Below are positions 7,642-29,077 of a stretch of DNA of 32,043 nucleotides, in pieces; position 1 is the first letter of the stretch; each line of letters starts with the position of its first letter. The notes beneath the pieces are model-generated. The model was not told where the DNA came from. It ran no database searches and saw only the letters and a program-made list of their open reading frames with translations. The stretch lies in the IMG/VR virus record IMGVR_UViG_2713896773_000025; one strand, given 5' to 3'. The position numbers and the translations under genes were made by a program. This stretch comes from a virus. Lineage: Duplodnaviria > Heunggongvirae > Uroviricota > Caudoviricetes.

Positions 7642-8118
7642 ATGTCCACGCCAGCAAAACGAGGCCTTATAGGTGCAATTAAAGCCGGTCAGGCATATCT
7701 GGGGTGGGATGAGGTAACCTACCGTAGTGTTCTGTCTCGCTTATGCAACGGTAAAACATCATCCACTAAATGCACCCTCGACGAGCTGCAGGCTGTCAGG
7801 GAATATATGCATGACAAGGGTTTTCCTCGCTACTCAGCAAAACACGGTCGACGCCCAAAGGTTGCCAATACGCGCGAGTCAATTCTTTCTAAAATTAACG
7901 CATTACTTGCAGATGCAAAACGTCCGTGGAATTATGCCGAGAAAATGTGCGATCATATGTTTCACGTCAAATACATCGAGTGGTTGACGACTGAACAGTT
8001 AACCAAACTCATGCAGGCTCTCAGCATTGATGCGAGTCGGCGAAAAAAGCGGGAGCGTAATAATGAATCTGGAACAGGTAACGGAGCTGCTGCCATCAGC
8101 AGTGATTCAAATAGCTGA
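7642..8118 (+). CDS. gemA: GemA-like regulatory protein (158 aa)
   Basis: ATG at 7642 with AGGAG RBS; KRGLIGAIKAGQAYLGWDE...YRSVL pattern recalled from the Mu GemA/DUF1018 family; sits immediately before the Mor-like gene. Confidence 0.7.
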   Translation: MSTPAKRGLIGAIKAGQAYLGWDEVTYRSVLSRLCNGKTSSTKCTLDELQAVREYMHDKGFPRYSAKHGRRPKVANTRESILSKINALLADAKRPWNYAEKMCDHMFHVKYIEWLTTEQLTKLMQALSIDASRRKKRERNNESGTGNGAAAISSDSNS

Positions 8119-8497
8119 CCTGATAGGCTTCCCGGCGACCGAGCAGCTTCTTTCTGCTTTTGGTGGCACCACGTTCCCGATAGGTAAAGGCCTCCGCGCT
8201 ATGGGGGCCAGCCGCGCAGCCCTCCTGCGCAATACTATCGGCGATGATAAAACCCAATTACTCATCAAGAATTTCGGCGGAGAAGTTCTCTATTTACCGC
8301 GCTGTGATCGTGCCCTTCGTGAATTACGCAACCGCCGCTTTCTCGCCGAGTTCGCCGAAGTGCGTGAACAAGGTTCATCCTCTCTTATGGCCATGACCTT
8401 TCTTTGCCCTAAGTATGGATTCAGCGATCGTTTTGGATGGCAGTTACTAAGCCAGCACAGACAAAACACATCAATCAATCAACAAGAACTTTTTTAA
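8063..8497 (+). CDS. mor: Mor/C-family transcriptional activator (144 aa)
   Basis: GGEVLYLPR...LRELRNRRFLAEF...YGFSDR resembles the Mor/C core GG.VYIPR...L..DL.I...F.G.N..EL...YG; overlaps the gemA 3' end. Confidence 0.75.
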   Translation: MNLEQVTELLPSAVIQIADLIGFPATEQLLSAFGGTTFPIGKGLRAMGASRAALLRNTIGDDKTQLLIKNFGGEVLYLPRCDRALRELRNRRFLAEFAEVREQGSSSLMAMTFLCPKYGFSDRFGWQLLSQHRQNTSINQQELF

Positions 8498-8510: not shown

Positions 8511-9011
8511 ATGGAGTTTTTAATTGCTTTAATTATATTCGGTGCTTCTGTTGCTGTTTACAAAGATGCTATCACCAATAACATTGCAAGACCTGCCCGT
8601 TGGGGGATTGGTTCAGCATTCATATTCTTCATTGTCATTCCATTGTATCTATTTAAAAGAAAAAAATTAATCGGAAGTGCATTATCAGACTCGGATGATG
8701 CCAGTAGTGTCCAGGGCGGAAAAAATGTTAGCCCCTTATCAGTTTATGTCCTGATGTTCATTTTAGCATTTATTGCCCCAGTGATTAATTTTTACAAAGG
8801 TGATTTACCTGGCTGTGATTCATCCGATGTCCATTCTGTTCTTACAGAGTTGCTGAATGGAGAAAAATTCTCTGAGCCCGCGCAAATGAGTTATGACCGG
8901 GTTAATGCAGTGAGACACTGTAACTTGACTGTTTCTGATAGAGTGTTTTCATATACAGTGAAATGGTACAGTGAAGAGAAAGATCAGTTTGTTGTACAGT
9001 TTGACAACTAA
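8511..9011 (+). CDS. AT-rich membrane protein, candidate moron (166 aa)
   Basis: Three hydrophobic helices plus a roughly 70-aa C-terminal soluble domain; gene is markedly more AT-rich than its neighbours. Confidence 0.6.
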   Translation: MEFLIALIIFGASVAVYKDAITNNIARPARWGIGSAFIFFIVIPLYLFKRKKLIGSALSDSDDASSVQGGKNVSPLSVYVLMFILAFIAPVINFYKGDLPGCDSSDVHSVLTELLNGEKFSEPAQMSYDRVNAVRHCNLTVSDRVFSYTVKWYSEEKDQFVVQFDN

Positions 9012-9013
9012 TT

Positions 9014-9091
9014 CCACTGAACCTCTTCACCTGATTATTCACCTAACCCGATGAAATACTGACGCCATCCCTTTTTAACCGGATGGCGTTA
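9014..9091 (+). promoter_or_regulatory. late-promoter-like element, copy 1: conserved motif CCACTGAACCTCTTCACC (9014..9031) plus hairpin 9060..9091 burying the endolysin start codon
   Basis: Motif is one of three near-identical copies; hairpin arms TGACGCCATCC / GGATGGCGTTA (one G-U pair) with a 10-nt loop; ATG at 9091. Confidence 0.55.
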
Positions 9092-9735
9092 TGCTTTTAA
9101 CACTCCCACAATTTCAGCGTGCAGCAGCTCTTTCGCCAGTGATGGCGCAACGATGGTTTGAACCATTCGGTAAAGCCACCGCTGAATTCGAAATTAATAC
9201 ACCCGCCAGACTTGCCGCCTTTATTGCTCAAACCGGCCATGAAAGCGCGGGTTTCAGTCGGCTCAGTGAAAATCTCTATTACTCTGATGCTGAGCGCGTG
9301 GCGCGTATTTTCCGCAGCGACTTCGATCTCAATAAGAATCGTATTATCGAGCCCTGCGAGATTGAATTTGCCCGACGCTATACCCGTAACCCTGAAAAAA
9401 TGGCGAATTATGTTTACGCAAATCAGGGGGGTAACGGTAATGAAGCATCAGGCGATGGCTGGCGCTTTCGCGGACGTGGCCTGATTCAGATTACCCTGCG
9501 CAATAATTACCGCCTTTGCGGTAAGGCGCTGGGCCTCGATCTCATCGCGAATCCCGATTTGTTACTGGAGTATCTCAACGCAGCCCGCAGCGCTGCCTGG
9601 TACTGGAAGGCAAATGGCTGCAACGAGCTGGCTGACAAAGGCAATTTTCTGGCCGTAACCCGGCGTATCAACCCTCCGGCTGAAGGTCAGGCTGACCGCG
9701 TGGCGCGGCTGAATGTCGCTAAGGCGGCGCTATGA
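9091..9735 (+). CDS. endolysin, glycoside hydrolase family 19 (chitinase-like) type (214 aa)
   Basis: AAFIAQTGHESAGF catalytic-region motif typical of GH19-type phage endolysins; first gene after the late-promoter-like element. Confidence 0.78.
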   Translation: MLLTLPQFQRAAALSPVMAQRWFEPFGKATAEFEINTPARLAAFIAQTGHESAGFSRLSENLYYSDAERVARIFRSDFDLNKNRIIEPCEIEFARRYTRNPEKMANYVYANQGGNGNEASGDGWRFRGRGLIQITLRNNYRLCGKALGLDLIANPDLLLEYLNAARSAAWYWKANGCNELADKGNFLAVTRRINPPAEGQADRVARLNVAKAAL

Positions 9736-16317: not shown

Positions 16318-16856
16318 GTTACGCCATCAGGTATGACATTGGTGACTTTGAGCGTTCACTCGGTGAACTCATTAAAAAGCTGGAAAACCGCGCCCCCCTG
16401 ATGCGCGAGATGGCCGCTGCCATGGGCGATGCCGTCGAAGAAAACTTCGCGCAACAGGGGCGCCCCGCATGGATGGGCTGGAGCCCGGCATACGCCCGTC
16501 AGCGCCGGGGCGGTAAAATTCTCCAGAAGAGCGGTCGACTGGCGGCAAGTATCACCCAGTACAGCACGAATGATGAAGCGACGGTCGGGACCAATGTGAA
16601 ATACGCCCGCATCCACCAGGAAGGCGGGGAAATCAGCATTCCGGCCCGCAGTCAGAAAGCCTGGTACCGCCAGAAAAAGGATGGTTCAGTGGGTAACCGG
16701 TTCGTTAAAAAATCCCGCTCCAACTTTGAGCAGTGGAACACTATCGGGGCGTATAAAATTAGGATGCCCGCGCGTCCTTTCCTGCATCTCACCGAAGATG
16801 ACGTGGAGAAGATGGAGAATACGGCTGAGCAGTATCTGAAACGTATTTTAGACTGA
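16314..16856 (+). CDS. Mu G-like virion morphogenesis protein (180 aa)
   Basis: ATGA overlap with F-like gene; size and position match Mu G. Confidence 0.72.
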   Translation: MSYAIRYDIGDFERSLGELIKKLENRAPLMREMAAAMGDAVEENFAQQGRPAWMGWSPAYARQRRGGKILQKSGRLAASITQYSTNDEATVGTNVKYARIHQEGGEISIPARSQKAWYRQKKDGSVGNRFVKKSRSNFEQWNTIGAYKIRMPARPFLHLTEDDVEKMENTAEQYLKRILD

Positions 16857-16972
16857 GGGCAAATTCGTCCTGTAACGCGCTGTGACGCGTTCAGCCTGAT
16901 TGTGCTAGAGTGATTCGCCAAAGAGGTGTTCAGACGTTTTTAAAAGCGGTTTAAAAAGGCCTGGGCTCATAA

Positions 16973-17191
16973 ATGCATTACGGGAGCGGGCAACTGTACA
17001 CATTCAAAGCTTTCCTTGATTATTTCACCCCGCAGCAGTGGGTTTTCATTGGCATCTTAGGGGGGCTGGTTATAAAAGTTGCTGAGTGGTTCACTGACCG
17101 ATACTTTGCCCGCAGGCGTCAGTCTGCTAAACCCGATAAGCCGACAACCAAAGCGATCCTCAGCGATAATCCACTGAACCTCTTCATCTGA
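16973..17191 (+). CDS. doubtful 72-aa ORF in the G-I intergenic region
   Basis: Weak RBS; one hydrophobic helix; its 3' end overlaps the conserved late-promoter motif, so it may be spurious. Confidence 0.25.
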   Translation: MHYGSGQLYTFKAFLDYFTPQQWVFIGILGGLVIKVAEWFTDRYFARRRQSAKPDKPTTKAILSDNPLNLFI

Positions 17192-17227
17192 ACCTCCCCG
17201 CAGTGGTGCCGTATCGTCGGCACCATG
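17171..17227 (+). promoter_or_regulatory. late-promoter-like element, copy 2: motif CCACTGAACCTCTTCATC (17171..17188) plus hairpin 17204..17225 ending in the I-gene start codon
   Basis: Stem GGTGCCG / CGGCACC (17205..17211 / 17218..17224) extendable by a T-A pair that uses the A of the ATG at 17225; loop TATCGT. Confidence 0.55.
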
Positions 17228-18340
17228 AAAAAGACACTCATCGCTTCACTCACCCAGGAAATTAACACCGCTACTCCCGGTGTCATTCAGCTCTTTCCGG
17301 CTGGTGAATTCCGCGCCCGTGATGGTCGCCCGACCGAATGCGCCGCCTGGCTGATGACGCGGGAAATTGCAGAGCGCCTTATTGCCGCTGCTGATGCCCG
17401 CGCCACCCCCTATGTCCTTGACTACGAACACCAGACCCTTCGGGCCGCTAAAAACGGTTTGCCTGCGCCTGCAGCTGCATTCTTCAAAAAGCTGGAGTGG
17501 CGGGATGGCGAGGGTTTGTTCGCCATCGATGTCGAGTGGACAGCCGCTGCGGCTGCAATGGTCGAGGCGAAAGAGTATCGCTTTATTTCCCCCGTATTTT
17601 CTTACGACAAAACCGGTCAGGTGCTGGAGTTGCTTAACGCCGCGCTGACCAATACACCAGCGGTGGACGGGATGGAGGAAGTGTTACTTGCTGCCGCCTC
17701 CCTGATGGCCGCGCATTTAACCACAGAGGGTCAGACCGAAATGGATGAAGAATTTCTCAATGAGCTACTGAGCAACCTGCGCTGGATGCTCAATCTGCCA
17801 ACCGCCTCAACGAAAGAAGAGATTATGGCTGAGCTGCAAAAAATCATCACCATGATTTCCAATGGCCAGGGGACTGCAGCGGCGTCGGTCAGTCTGCTGG
17901 ATATCCTGAACCAGAACGCGCAGAGCATCGCCGACCTGTCAGCGAAACTCGACACGCCTGACCCGGCTAAGTGGGTTTCGGTGGAGGTCATGCATTCAGC
18001 CGTTCAGCAGGCAACAGAGCGTGCAGGTGCGGGTAATACCGCCGCACTCGCCACGCAACAGGCTGAAGCGTTGATTACGGTTGCCCTCGGCGACGGTCGT
18101 CTGCTTCCGGCACAGCAGGCATGGGCTGCGTCACTGGCGAAATCCGATCCGGCCAGTCTTACCGCCTTTATCGAAAAAGCGCCAAAGATTGCCGCACTGA
18201 CGACCAGTCAGACTCAGGGGCAACCGCCTGCAGGCCTTCCGTCACACCCGTCACAGGGTGCTGAAGATGATGCGATTGACCCGGCCATCTGCTCCATGAT
18301 GGGCAATGACCCGGAAAGCGTCGCGAAATACCTCAAATAA
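17225..18340 (+). CDS. Mu I-like head protease/scaffold protein (371 aa)
   Basis: Position between G-like and major capsid genes; Ala-rich scaffold-like C-terminal half. Confidence 0.78.
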   Translation: MKKTLIASLTQEINTATPGVIQLFPAGEFRARDGRPTECAAWLMTREIAERLIAAADARATPYVLDYEHQTLRAAKNGLPAPAAAFFKKLEWRDGEGLFAIDVEWTAAAAAMVEAKEYRFISPVFSYDKTGQVLELLNAALTNTPAVDGMEEVLLAAASLMAAHLTTEGQTEMDEEFLNELLSNLRWMLNLPTASTKEEIMAELQKIITMISNGQGTAAASVSLLDILNQNAQSIADLSAKLDTPDPAKWVSVEVMHSAVQQATERAGAGNTAALATQQAEALITVALGDGRLLPAQQAWAASLAKSDPASLTAFIEKAPKIAALTTSQTQGQPPAGLPSHPSQGAEDDAIDPAICSMMGNDPESVAKYLK

Positions 18341-29015: not shown

Positions 29016-29077
29016 CCACTGAACCCCTTCACCGATAATTTAAATTTCCATGCCGGTAGTATTACGGCATGGAAATG
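29016..29077 (+). promoter_or_regulatory. late-promoter-like element, copy 3: motif CCACTGAACCCCTTCACC (29016..29033) plus 12-bp hairpin 29044..29076 covering both candidate start codons
   Basis: Stem ATTTCCATGCCG / CGGCATGGAAAT with loop GTAGTATTA; ATGs at 29069 and 29075 are inside the 3' arm. Confidence 0.55.

What the first reader, a model, noticed from the sequence alone, without database searches (positions are those of the whole stretch)
17171..17227. Copy 2 of the motif-hairpin element; motif overlaps the 3' end of a doubtful ORF and the hairpin uses the A of the I-gene ATG
Motif CCACTGAACCTCTTCATC at 17171..17188, then stem GGTGCCG / CGGCACC with loop TATCGT, extendable by a T-A pair using the A of the ATG at 17225. 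No convincing SD lies outside the stem. Because the motif falls within the last codons of the 72-aa ORF at 16973..17191, either that ORF is not real or the regulatory element is embedded in coding sequence.
Basis: seen in the sequence. Interest (0 to 1): 0.62.

Follow-up and report, generated by a model that had tools for sequence, protein, structure and literature searches.

The report
Mu-type late promoter, leaderless, hairpin-wrapped
The "motif plus hairpin" in front of the head-protease gene of this Mu-like prophage is an activator-dependent late promoter whose -10 box sits in the hairpin loop, so transcription should start on the ATG itself, and the hairpin can form only in RNA that reads in from upstream, an arrangement kept in many related phages but not seen in phage Mu.

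Summary
The motif is at 17171-17188, one of three copies against 0.03 expected. The stem-loop spans 17203-17226 (-16.4 kcal/mol). There is no Shine-Dalgarno sequence, and the motif overlaps the 72-aa ORF.

The window is a Mu-like prophage. The three motif copies precede the endolysin, I (head protease) and gp46 (baseplate) operons, where Mu has Plys, PI and PP.

In 57 distinct related promoters, the only conserved positions downstream of the motif are an A and a T. They define an nAnnnT hexamer 41-42 nt from the motif start in 57/57. Here that hexamer is TATCGT, the hairpin loop.

Reading it as the -10 box puts the motif's TGAA-N4-TTCA dyad at -43.5, where Mu's Mor/C activators bind. It puts the transcription start at 17224/17225, the A of the ATG, which predicts a leaderless mRNA.

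The hairpin's 5' arm lies upstream of that start, so only read-through RNA can fold it, and the fold buries the AUG. Stems covary. The layout recurs in I genes from Enterobacterales, Burkholderia, Chromobacterium, Pseudomonas and others.

The 72-aa ORF is real and holin-like. A 4-nt deletion makes it run into the motif here.

The start site and the hairpin's role are inferred, not measured.

The parts
17171..17188 (+). Binding site for the phage's Mor/C-family late activator. It holds the dyad TGAA (17175-17178) N4 TTCA (17183-17186), centred between 17180 and 17181. That is -43.5 or -44.5 from a start at 17224 or 17225.
   Evidence: 3 copies in the window against 0.03 expected. The same 3 copies are in E. 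coli prophage L001. The motif is conserved upstream of I, gp46 and lys homologues in IMG/VR contigs. The Mu C site is a dyad centred at -43.5 (PMC2582627).
17189..17194 (+). Weak hexamer at the -35 position (TGAACC), 17 bp before the -10. It is part of a degenerate second copy of the motif (CATCTGAACCTCC, 17185-17197).
   Evidence: Sequence reading. The consensus scan finds no sigma-70 promoter at this site; its only hit in 16700-17400 is an unrelated 9-of-12 match at 17141-17170, as expected for an activator-dependent promoter lacking a good -35. Related promoters carry T.A.T-type bases here (consensus line).
17212..17217 (+). Predicted -10 hexamer TATCGT. It is also the hairpin loop.
   Evidence: nAnnnT lies at offset 41 or 42 from the motif start in 57/57 unique related promoters. 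A at offset 42 and T at offset 46 are the only conserved positions outside the motif. In I and gp46 promoters, 38/39 have the hexamer 6-7 nt before the start codon. The same holds for 61/69 I genes chosen by protein homology alone.
17224..17225 (+). Predicted transcription start (C17224 or, more likely, A17225, the A of the I ATG), giving a leaderless I mRNA.
   Evidence: Inferred from the -10 position. The motif-to-start-codon distance clusters tightly at 53-54 nt in I- and gp46-type relatives (33 of 39 unique; the rest 55-57). C at -1 in 38/39 and no SD. The predicted 5' end is unstructured at -0.4 kcal/mol. Not measured.
17203..17226 (+). Inverted repeat: arms 17203-17211 and 17218-17226, loop 17212-17217. 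The 5' arm lies upstream of the predicted start, so the hairpin exists only in RNA transcribed from upstream, or in single-stranded DNA. It pairs the A and U of the AUG.
   Evidence: RNA -16.4 kcal/mol, z -4.4; DNA -9.6. Hairpins with different sequences sit at the same place in relatives, mean z -4.6. Covariation is shown for the gp46 copies. 96 of 104 unique starts have a hairpin enclosing the -10, and 81 of those pair at least 1 nt of the start codon.
17225..18340 (+). Gene I (Mu-like head protease/scaffold), first gene of the head operon.
   Evidence: Pfam PF10123, E 6.9e-93. The N-terminus MKK..IA.L is conserved with relatives and with Mu I.
16973..17191 (+). Real small membrane-protein gene (holin-like, 72 aa). 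Here its last 7 codons run through the activator site because of a 4-nt deletion.
   Evidence: Pfam PF04971, 37.5 bits (cut-off 26). PHROG 9876 holin, 2.2e-6. Conserved in L010/L011/L082, where it stops at TAA just before the motif. The minus-strand ORF that PGAP annotates in L001 is not intact in the window.
8027..8497 (+). Gene for the Mor/C-family late transcriptional activator, presumed to bind the motif.
   Evidence: PHROG 836 'late transcriptional activator', 1.7e-39. Pfam Mor, 34.8 bits (cut-off 24.9). 27% identity to Mu C over 75 aa, with the C-terminus QQELF aligned to Mu C QPDLF.
9014..9093 (+). Copy 1 (Plys equivalent): motif 9014-9031, -10 AATACT 9055-9060, predicted start about 9067, hairpin 9060-9070 / 9081-9091 ending in the A of the endolysin ATG (9091).
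   Evidence: The full hairpin is -17.6 kcal/mol. RNA starting at the predicted start keeps only -2.9 kcal/mol.
29016..29076 (+). Copy 3 (baseplate operon): motif 29016-29033, -10 TAGTAT 29057-29062, predicted start at A29069 (the conserved gp46 start codon), hairpin 29044-29055 / 29065-29076.
   Evidence: (-19.7 kcal/mol, z -6.2).

Best explanation
This is the PI-equivalent late promoter of a Mu-like prophage.

Proposed mechanism:
- The 18-nt motif is the binding site of the phage's own Mor/C-family activator (gene 8027-8497). Its TGAA-N4-TTCA dyad lies about 43.5 bp upstream of the start.
- The hairpin loop TATCGT is the sigma-70 -10 hexamer. There is no good -35, so the promoter should be silent without the activator.
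- RNA polymerase should start at C17224 or A17225. The I mRNA would then be leaderless (5'-AUG), which is why there is no Shine-Dalgarno sequence.
- The inverted repeat flanks the -10 and ends inside the AUG. Its 5' arm lies upstream of the start, so RNA made from this promoter cannot form the hairpin.
- RNA reading through from the upstream operon (G, then the holin-like gene) can form it, and the A and U of the AUG are then paired.
- The most likely role is therefore to keep read-through transcripts from being translated at I. I would be expressed only from its own activator-dependent promoter. This is the logic known as fold-back inhibition in IS10 and IS50.

Shown here: the anatomy, the conservation and covariation, and the family of the activator.
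Inferred: the start site, dependence on the activator, and what the hairpin does.

My sub-confidences: late promoter of the Mor/C type 0.9; -10 assignment 0.85; start on or next to the A of the ATG 0.7; hairpin acts in read-through RNA to block translation 0.45.
For: Context
- The window is a Mu-like prophage, and the three motif copies precede the lys, I and gp46 operons.
- The prophage encodes a Mor/C activator.

The -10 assignment
- In 57 unique motif-anchored promoters, the only conserved positions beyond the searched motif are A at offset 42 (86%) and T at offset 46 (82%).
- nAnnnT lies at offset 41 or 42 in 57/57. At the rival position (offset 19) it occurs in only 16/57.

Geometry
- With that hexamer as -12..-7, the dyad centre is at -43.5. 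This matches the published position of the Mu C site (PMC2582627).
- The Mu C footprint spans -30 to -55.

Leaderless reading
- Motif-to-start-codon distance clusters at 53-54 nt (33 of 39 unique; the rest 55-57).
- The hexamer ends 6-7 nt before the start codon in 38/39. C at -1 in 38/39. ATG in 37/39.
- No SD, whereas most other genes of the prophage have one.
- The predicted 5' end is unstructured.
- An independent sample of 69 I genes chosen by protein homology only gave: 61 with the hexamer, 63 with C at -1, and 3 with an SD.
- That sample spans Pectobacterium, Serratia, Morganella, Burkholderia, Chromobacterium, Pseudomonas and Nitrosomonas.
- Pseudomonas phage MP22 has the same geometry.

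Hairpin
- In L001, the three motif-led genes rank 1-3 of 47 for structure around the start codon.
- Hairpins occur in 96/104 unique starts. All 5' arms lie upstream of -11, and the start codon is paired in 81.
- Mean z against shuffles is -4.6.
- The gp46 helix is 78% paired against 69% in shuffles (0/500), with 20 double changes against 5.4 expected.
- That helix includes a compensating C wherever the start codon is GTG.
- In lys-type copies, the predicted start falls inside the 5' arm. The full hairpin is -14 to -20 kcal/mol, but the promoter's own RNA keeps only -0.4 to -5.
- The consensus scan finds no terminator between the end of the preceding gene and any of the three promoters; its two weak hits in 16700-17400 (one inside ORF72 at 17029-17042) do not exceed the shuffle expectation of 1.0. 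Read-through is therefore plausible.

Experimental anchor in Mu
- At Plys, an inverted repeat (GCCATCA / TGATGGC) has its 5' arm ending at the S1-mapped start, and its 3' arm covers the lys ATG.
- PI has a similar repeat around its mapped start.
Against: - No transcript 5' end has been measured for this phage or any close relative. The start site is inferred from a hexamer.
- Mu itself has a 22-nt leader on I, and an AGGA ends 2 nt before that ATG, too close for a typical Shine-Dalgarno spacing. Leaderless expression is therefore not a family rule.
- Two gp46 homologues start with GTG, which is poor for leaderless translation in E. coli.
- The sense and antisense strands fold equally well (mean difference -0.55 kcal/mol, p = 0.12; 95 against 90 G-U pairs). 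This test cannot tell an RNA structure from a DNA palindrome.
- In the window's I copy, only 2 nt of the AUG are paired.
- An internal AUG without an SD would be poorly translated anyway, so the need for a block is not obvious.
- Read-through from the lys operon into I would occur at the same late time, so the selective benefit is unproven.
- RNAalifold finds no consensus helix for the I-type set, because the stem register shifts between lineages.
- The Mu Plys and PI repeats are only modestly better than shuffles (z -2.05 and -2.84).
Confidence: 0.6

Rival explanations
1. The promoter and the leaderless start are as in the best explanation. The hairpin, however, serves the upstream transcript. 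It would act as a 3' stem-loop that protects the lys-G-holin mRNA from 3' exonucleases, or as a weak non-canonical terminator or pause that ends the upstream operon. It overlaps the promoter only because the spacer and discriminator are the only free bases in a 35-80 nt intergenic gap.
For: - Hairpins are strong and GC-rich.
- No canonical terminator is found between the end of the preceding gene and the promoters.
- Mu places a terminator-like hairpin with a T-run upstream of PI.
- Some relatives (L073, L094, L119) carry a hairpin plus T-run between the motif and the -10. They then have an SD-bearing leader and no start-codon hairpin.
Against: - There is no T-run after the I or gp46 hairpins.
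- The 3' arm is tied to the start codon. The 3'-most paired base lies between -4 and +8 in 95/96, and the start codon is paired in 81/96.
- Pairing extends into codon 2 with covariation, and a GTG start is compensated in the 5' arm. A 3'-end protector would not require either.
Confidence: 0.2
2. The palindrome works at the DNA level. One version: it extrudes as a cruciform or hairpin under supercoiling or during replicative transposition, which would hide or expose the -10. Another version: it simply provides GC clamps on both sides of the -10 that keep the promoter shut until the activator, helped by the sliding clamp, opens it.
For: - In I and gp46 promoters the palindrome is centred on the -10.
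- It folds equally well on both strands and as DNA.
- Mu C acts on DNA unwinding and open-complex formation (PMC4461284).
- Mu C needs the replication clamp (PMC12867686).
- The discriminator is very GC-rich: G at -2 in 35/39 and C at -1 in 38/39.
Against: - In lys-type promoters the palindrome is not centred on the -10. It lies downstream, with 10-11 nt loops that disfavour cruciforms, yet it still ends at the start codon.
- What stays constant is the relation to the start codon and the transcription start, not to the -10.
- In the fixed-register gp46 helix, sense-strand wobble pairs (G-U/U-G, about 17-18 cells) outnumber A-C/C-A cells (about 6).
- Arms differ between promoters of one phage (e.g. 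L036/L068, L011/L081), which argues against a shared palindrome-binding protein.
Confidence: 0.12
3. Motif and hairpin form one RNA-level unit. Transcription starts upstream of the hairpin, using a -10 right after the motif (GAACCT 17190-17195). The hairpin is a 5'-UTR structure that masks the AUG until a factor opens it, as Com does for mom. Alternatively, it is an antitermination or processing signal.
For: - Copies 1 and 3 have -10-like GATTAT and GATAAT directly after the motif.
- Mu has a precedent for a translational hairpin opened by a protein (Com-mom; established knowledge).
Against: - nAnnnT directly after the motif occurs in only 16/57 related promoters, against 57/57 at offset 41-42.
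- This reading would put the activator dyad at about -21, which is incompatible with Mor/C geometry.
- It does not explain why the loop keeps A and T at fixed positions, nor why the distance to the ATG is so tightly clustered.
- No Rfam family matches.
Confidence: 0.05

Closest known systems
Phage Mu C-dependent late promoters (Plys, PI, PP, Pmom)
   Same: - Same genome positions: in front of the lysis, head and tail/baseplate operons.
- A Mor/C-family activator is encoded just upstream of the lysis promoter.
- There is a recognizable -10 and no good -35.
- The dyad site lies about 43.5 bp upstream of the start.
- The box resembles the Mu box (TGAACCCC here, ATAACCCC in Mu).
   Different: - The box sequence and its dyad (TGAA-N4-TTCA) differ.
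- The activator is only 27% identical to Mu C over 75 aa.
- In Mu, I has a 22-nt leader carrying an AGGA just before the ATG, and PP lies about 340 nt upstream of P inside gene N.
- Here the I and gp46 start codons coincide with the predicted start, and a strong palindrome wraps the -10, the start site and the AUG.
- The third promoter precedes gp46 rather than P.
Fold-back inhibition of read-through transcripts in IS10 and IS50 transposase genes (Davis, Simons and Kleckner 1985; Krebs and Reznikoff 1986; recalled from memory, not retrieved here)
   Same: An inverted repeat has its 5' arm upstream of the element's own transcription start and its 3' arm covering the translation start. Only transcripts entering from outside fold and are silenced.
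   Different: - Those are transposase genes with SD-led mRNAs at the ends of insertion sequences.
- Here the arrangement sits at internal late operons of a transposable phage and is combined with a leaderless start.
- Function is untested here.
Leaderless phage mRNAs such as lambda cI from PRM (established knowledge)
   Same: The transcript starts at the A of the AUG, there is no SD, and the 5' end is unstructured.
   Different: - Known cases are mostly repressor genes.
- Here the leaderless genes would be the first genes of late structural operons driven by an activator.
- The start site is only predicted.
Mu Com-mom translational control (established knowledge)
   Same: Same phage family, and a hairpin masks a start codon.
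   Different: In mom, the hairpin is inside the promoter's own transcript and is opened by the Com protein. Here the promoter's own transcript should lack the 5' arm, so no opener is needed.
Intrinsic (Rho-independent) terminators
   Same: GC-rich stem-loop at the end of an operon.
   Different: No T-run follows the I and gp46 hairpins. The simple scan finds none at these sites.

Membership tests
Mor/C-dependent late promoter (Mu Plys/PI/PP/Pmom class) | A Mor/C-family activator is encoded by the same phage | tested here: met
   8027-8497: Pfam Mor 34.8 bits (cut-off 24.9). PHROG 836 'late transcriptional activator' 1.7e-39.
Mor/C-dependent late promoter (Mu Plys/PI/PP/Pmom class) | Recognizable -10 hexamer but no typical -35 | tested here: met
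   TATCGT at 17212-17217. nAnnnT at the same offset in 57/57 relatives. No consensus sigma-70 promoter is found by the scan at these sites.
Mor/C-dependent late promoter (Mu Plys/PI/PP/Pmom class) | [quoted passage not shown] | tested here: met
   The TGAA-N4-TTCA centre lies 31.5 nt before the hexamer, which is -43.5 if the hexamer is -12..-7. Published value from PMC2582627. This is measured relative to a predicted start, not a mapped one.
Mor/C-dependent late promoter (Mu Plys/PI/PP/Pmom class) | Located in front of the late (lysis, head, tail) operons | tested here: met
   Copies lie before GH19 endolysin, I protease and gp46. The same holds in relatives.
Mor/C-dependent late promoter (Mu Plys/PI/PP/Pmom class) | Transcription depends on the activator, and the activator footprints on the site | not testable with these tools
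   Needs reporter assays, EMSA or footprinting.
Leaderless mRNA | The primary 5' end coincides with the A of the start codon | not testable with these tools
   Predicted only: the hexamer ends 6-7 nt before the start codon in 38/39 and 61/69.
Leaderless mRNA | No Shine-Dalgarno sequence, AUG start codon, unstructured 5' end | tested here: met
   No SD run of 4 or more bases. ATG in 37/39, with 2 GTG exceptions. The first 39 nt fold at -0.4 kcal/mol, z +1.4.
Fold-back inhibition of read-through transcripts (IS10/IS50 type) | Inverted repeat whose 5' arm lies upstream of the gene's own transcription start | tested here: met
   All 96 hairpins have their 5' arm upstream of -11 relative to the start codon, which is the predicted start. 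In lys-type copies the predicted start falls inside the 5' arm. In Mu Plys the arm ends at the S1-mapped start. Outside Mu, this is relative to predicted starts.
Fold-back inhibition of read-through transcripts (IS10/IS50 type) | The 3' arm covers the translation initiation region | tested here: met
   The start codon is paired in 81/96. In the window, A17225 and U17226 are paired. A compensatory change accompanies GTG starts.
Fold-back inhibition of read-through transcripts (IS10/IS50 type) | Read-through transcripts exist and are translated less than promoter-initiated ones | not testable with these tools
   Only indirect: the upstream genes are co-oriented and no terminator is predicted between the preceding gene and the promoters.
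Intrinsic terminator | GC-rich hairpin followed directly by a T-run | tested here: not met
   The hairpin is followed by ATGAAAAAGACA. The scan reports no terminator at 17203-17240.
Any curated RNA family (Rfam 15) | Match at the family's gathering score | tested here: not met
   0 matches in the whole window. Only chance-level sub-threshold hits locally.

The most novel reading that the evidence does not exclude
A large clade of Mu-like transposable phages in Gamma- and Betaproteobacteria starts its head (I) and baseplate (gp46) operons exactly on the AUG from Mor/C-activated promoters. That clade includes the laboratory Pseudomonas phages of the D3112/MP22/DMS3 group. Each promoter wraps the -10, the start site and the AUG in a covarying palindrome. 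Only promoter-initiated, leaderless RNA would then be translatable, and any RNA reading in from upstream would be mute. This would be a 'transcript-origin gate' on phage late genes.
Probability: 0.4. Interest if true: 0.7.

Novelty: new variant of a known kind. Interest (0 to 1): 0.55.

Why it matters
- It turns an unexplained repeat into a concrete, testable promoter model for a widespread group of Mu-like prophages.
- It predicts that late structural operons, which need high expression, begin with leaderless mRNAs in Proteobacteria, where such mRNAs are considered rare and weak.
- It suggests that the read-through protection known from insertion sequences is also used inside transposable phages.
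- It has practical value for annotation:
  - Gene finders that expect an SD misplace these starts. MP22 orf33 is annotated 124 nt too far downstream.
  - They also miss or mis-strand the small holin-like gene.
- The conserved box plus a fixed-offset -10 gives a simple way to locate late operons in Mu-like prophages.

Tried and rejected
- **Megablast of the region against the phage collection:** no match. Relatives had to be found through protein patterns and the motif.
- **Chance:** rejected, by 0/100 shuffles for the motif and 0/200 for the hairpin.
- **A -10 directly after the motif:** this was my first reading of copies 1 and 3. I rejected it because only 16/57 relatives keep it.
- **Intrinsic terminator:** no T-run.
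- **Known RNA family:** none.
- **Shared palindrome-binding protein:** unlikely, because the arms differ between promoters of the same phage.
- **RNAalifold on the I-type set:** gave no helix, because stem registers differ between lineages. Per-sequence folding and the gp46 alignment were used instead.
- **Sense against antisense folding, to separate RNA from DNA function:** inconclusive.
- **PDB sequence search with the activator:** no hit.
- **Literature searches:** looked for leaderless or hairpin-wrapped late promoters in Mu-like phages, and for the IS10 fold-back papers. Nothing in the held library describes this arrangement. The Mahillon and Chandler review is not held, so the IS10/IS50 comparison rests on my own knowledge.
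- **The minus-strand ORF annotated by PGAP in L001 opposite the 72-aa ORF:** not intact in the window.
Full report
**1. What is in the sequence**

- CCACTGAACCTCTTCATC lies at 17171-17188. Two near-copies on the same strand lie at 9014 and 29016. That is 3 matches against 0.03 expected, with no shuffle reaching 3.
- After a 14-nt gap comes GGTGCCG / TATCGT / CGGCACC, followed directly by the ATG at 17225.
- As RNA, the stem extends by U17204-A17225 and G17203-U17226 to nine pairs: -16.4 kcal/mol, z -4.4, 0/200 shuffles as stable.
- No Shine-Dalgarno-like run precedes the ATG (computed on the relative L001, which is identical in this stretch).
- The 72-aa ORF 16973-17191 overlaps the motif with its last seven codons.

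**2. Context**

The window is a Mu-like prophage. Its gene order is:
- transposase A and B
- a Mor/C-family activator (8027-8497)
- an unassigned 166-aa ORF
- GH19 endolysin (9091)
- terminase, portal, F and G
- the 72-aa ORF
- I protease (17225)
- major head protein T
- tail genes
- gp45, gp46 (29069) and gp47

A 95%-identical prophage sits in E. coli FDAARGOS_1303 (L001) and carries the same three motif copies.

The copies precede the lysis, head and baseplate operons. [quoted passage not shown]

**3. The loop is the -10 box**

Two scans of IMG/VR supplied the comparison set. One used the I protein as query, the other the motif itself. After confirming the downstream gene by tblastn, they gave 57 distinct promoters: 18 I-type, 24 gp46-type and 15 lys-type.
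- Anchored on the motif, the only conserved positions outside the searched pattern are A at offset 42 (86%) and T at offset 46 (82%).
- An nAnnnT hexamer lies at offset 41 (47 cases) or 42 (10 cases), which is 57/57.
- At the position I first favoured, directly after the motif, it occurs in only 16/57.
- A and T at hexamer positions 2 and 6 are the key bases of a sigma-70 -10 element.
- In the window the hexamers are TATCGT (17212-17217), TAGTAT (29057-29062) and AATACT (9055-9060).

**4. Geometry matches Mor/C promoters**

The motif contains the dyad TGAA-N4-TTCA, centred 31.5 nt before the hexamer. If the hexamer is -12..-7, the dyad centre is at -43.5.

The literature gives the following for Mu C:
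- Its footprint runs from about -30 to -55.
- Late promoters have a -10 but no typical -35 (PMC2582627; PMC4461284).

The Mu boxes (CCATAACCCC in PP, GCATAACCCC in PI, CCATAATCCC in Plys) resemble the TGAACCCC core found here.

The activator gene matches PHROG 836 'late transcriptional activator' at 1.7e-39. It is 27% identical to Mu C over 75 aa. Its C-terminal QQELF aligns with Mu C's QPDLF. A recent paper reports a C-terminal clamp-binding motif in Mu C (PMC12867686); which residues form it was not checked.

**5. The start codon coincides with the predicted start**

In I- and gp46-type promoters the motif-to-start-codon distance is 53 or 54 nt in 33 of 39 (the rest 55-57), across protein identities down to about 45%.
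- The hexamer ends 6 or 7 nt before the first base of the start codon in 38/39.
- The base before the start codon is C in 38/39.
- The codon is ATG in 37/39.
- For gp46 the conserved start is the first ATG (29069), not the second.

RNA polymerase normally starts 7-8 nt after the -10, at a purine preceded by a pyrimidine. The predicted start is therefore A17225 (or C17224), which gives a leaderless mRNA. That accounts for the missing SD. Most other genes of the prophage have an SD. The first 39 nt of the predicted mRNA are unstructured at -0.4 kcal/mol.

An independent sample avoided selection on the motif. It comprised 80 genome loci found with an I-protein alignment, of which 69 upstream sequences were unique. 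The hosts include Pectobacterium, Serratia, Klebsiella, Morganella, Photorhabdus, Chromobacterium, Burkholderia, Cupriavidus, Pseudomonas and Nitrosomonas. In this sample:
- 61/69 have the hexamer 6-7 nt before the ATG.
- 63/69 have C at -1.
- Only 3/69 have an SD.

This holds even where the upstream box differs.

Pseudomonas phage MP22 (Casadabanvirus) has GTTGAACCCCTTCC ... GTCGCC ACCATT GGCGGC ATG. Its TGAACC-to-ATG distance is the same 50 nt as in the window. Its annotated orf33 start lies 124 nt too far downstream.

Mu itself differs. I has a 22-nt leader with an AGGA just before the ATG, and PP lies about 340 nt upstream of P.

**6. The hairpin**

In L001, the three motif-led genes rank first, second and third of 47 genes for predicted structure across -30..+9. 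Their values are -19.7, -16.4 and -16.3 kcal/mol, against a median of -5.9.

Across 104 unique I and gp46 starts:
- 96 have a hairpin of -8 kcal/mol or better enclosing the -10.
- Every 5' arm lies upstream of -11, and so upstream of the predicted start.
- The 3'-most paired base lies between -4 and +8 in 95.
- At least one base of the start codon is paired in 81, and all three bases in 46.

Stem sequences are unrelated between lineages, and often between promoters of one phage. Yet each folds, with mean z -4.6.

For the gp46 set, which keeps one register:
- 78% of cells pair, against 69% in shuffles (0/500) and 29-57% with slid partners.
- There are 20 double-change cells against 5.4 expected.
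- The two homologues that start with GTG have C instead of T opposite the first base.

In lys-type promoters the hairpin is not centred on the -10.
- Its 5' arm begins in or just after the hexamer, and the predicted start falls inside that arm.
- Its 3' arm ends at the ATG.
- The full hairpin is -14 to -20 kcal/mol, but RNA starting at the predicted start keeps only -0.4 to -5.

The constant features across all three promoter types are these. The 5' arm lies upstream of, or across, the transcription start. The 3' arm lies at or over the start codon.

The consensus scan reports no terminator between the end of the preceding gene and any of the three promoters. Its two weak hits in 16700-17400, one of them inside ORF72, match the shuffle expectation.

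**7. Mechanism proposed**

RNA made from the promoter itself lacks the 5' arm and has a free 5'-AUG. RNA arriving from the upstream operon contains both arms and folds over the AUG. This is the logic of fold-back inhibition described for IS10 and IS50 transposase genes. I recall that from memory and could not retrieve those papers.

Mu supplies an experimental anchor.
- The published oligonucleotides carry 20 nt downstream of the S1-mapped starts.
- Placed this way, the Plys repeat GCCATCA (L022 1451-1457) / TGATGGC (1479-1485) has its 5' arm ending at the mapped start (1457/1458), and its 3' arm covers the lys ATG (1481).
- PI has CTGCTCA / TGAGCAG around its mapped start.
- These two repeats are only modestly better than shuffles (z -2.05 and -2.84).

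Relatives that instead carry a hairpin plus T-run between the motif and the -10 (L073, L094, L119, all in front of endolysin genes) have an SD-bearing leader and no start-codon hairpin. This fits two alternative ways of insulating a late promoter from incoming transcription, but it rests on three cases.

**8. What is not settled**

- No 5' end has been measured.
- The sense and antisense strands fold equally well (p = 0.12). That test therefore does not distinguish an RNA hairpin from a DNA palindrome.
- Two observations favour RNA, but neither is proof. One is the displaced hairpin with large loops in lys-type promoters. The other is the roughly 3:1 excess of sense-strand wobble pairs over A-C cells in the gp46 helix.
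- A role as a 3'-end protector or weak terminator for the upstream operon remains possible.
- Two GTG starts sit badly with leaderless translation in E. coli.

**9. The 72-aa ORF**

The ORF scores above the Pfam cut-off for P21 holin S and hits a PHROG holin family. It has one hydrophobic segment and a basic tail.

It is conserved at 41-47% identity in L010, L011 and L082, with 20 invariant positions. In most relatives it ends at a TAA immediately before the motif.

Against L001 the window lacks 9 nt (in frame) and 4 nt (frame-shifting) near the 3' end. The reading frame therefore continues across the motif to the TGA at 17189.

The gene is real. The overlap with the promoter box is a recent accident.

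**10. Verdict**

This is a homologue, in function and position, of Mu's PI late promoter. It differs in three ways:
- It has a different activator box.
- Its predicted start falls on the ATG.
- A covarying palindrome wraps the -10, the start site and the AUG.

I found no description of this arrangement in the literature available to me. It is widespread among Mu-like prophages. I rate it a new variant of a known kind and of moderate interest. The promoter identity is well supported. The leaderless start and the role of the hairpin still need experiments.

Noticed in passing
window 16925-16958 (between G and the 72-aa ORF); L224 443-478; Mu L022 8868-8945: A non-coding block, GGTGTTCAGACGTTTTTAAAAGCGGTTTAAAAA, is almost identical in a Klebsiella phage whose I protein is only 57% identical. 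It resembles the T/A-rich sequence around Mu's strong gyrase site, which lies in the same G-I gap. It may be a gyrase site homologue.
   Followed up: partly
window 16973-17191; L001 18668-18901; L003: The small holin-like gene between G and I is missed by PGAP in the E. coli relative, which instead annotates a minus-strand ORF that is not intact in the window. L003 carries a frameshift inside the gene. The C-terminal tail varies through 9-nt and 4-nt indels.
   Followed up: partly
window 8465-8497 (C-terminus of the activator): The Mor/C-family activator ends in QQELF, which aligns with QPDLF at the end of Mu C. A 2026 paper reports a C-terminal sliding-clamp-binding motif in Mu C needed for late transcription; I did not check which residues form it (PMC12867686).
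   Followed up: no
window 8511-9011: A 166-aa ORF lies between the activator gene and the lysis promoter. It has no Pfam or PHROG match, and its stop codon abuts motif copy 1.
   Followed up: no
L041, L044, L074, L037 (IMG/VR contigs): In these relatives the same box plus an AATACT -10 precedes the Mor/C activator gene itself. A GC hairpin and T-run follow directly after the predicted start. This looks like autoregulation with a leader terminator or attenuator.
   Followed up: partly
L073, L094, L119: This is a lysis-promoter variant. A terminator-like hairpin with a T-run sits between the box and the -10. It is followed by a leader of about 13-20 nt (a G-run is visible before the ATG in L073) in front of amidase- or peptidase-type endolysins, and there is no start-codon hairpin.
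   Followed up: partly
L223 (Pseudomonas phage MP22) 523 against the annotated 649: The annotated start of orf33 (protease/scaffold) is 124 nt downstream of the conserved, SD-less ATG that follows the hairpin. Similar mis-annotation is likely in other Casadabanvirus records.
   Followed up: partly
Mu L022 1451-1485 and 9027-9049: Mu's own Plys and PI carry weaker inverted repeats whose 5' arms end at the S1-mapped starts. The Plys repeat covers the lys ATG.
   Followed up: partly
window 17185-17197: A degenerate second copy of the box (CATCTGAACCTCC) directly follows the first, 14 bp out of phase. Its TGAACC sits at the -35 position. Relatives keep CA(C/T)CTGA here. This may be relevant to the tetrameric binding reported for Mor/C (bioRxiv 10.1101/2025.05.02.651988).
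   Followed up: no
L038, L058: gp46 homologues with a GTG start at the predicted transcription start, with a compensating T-to-C change in the 5' arm of the hairpin.
   Followed up: yes
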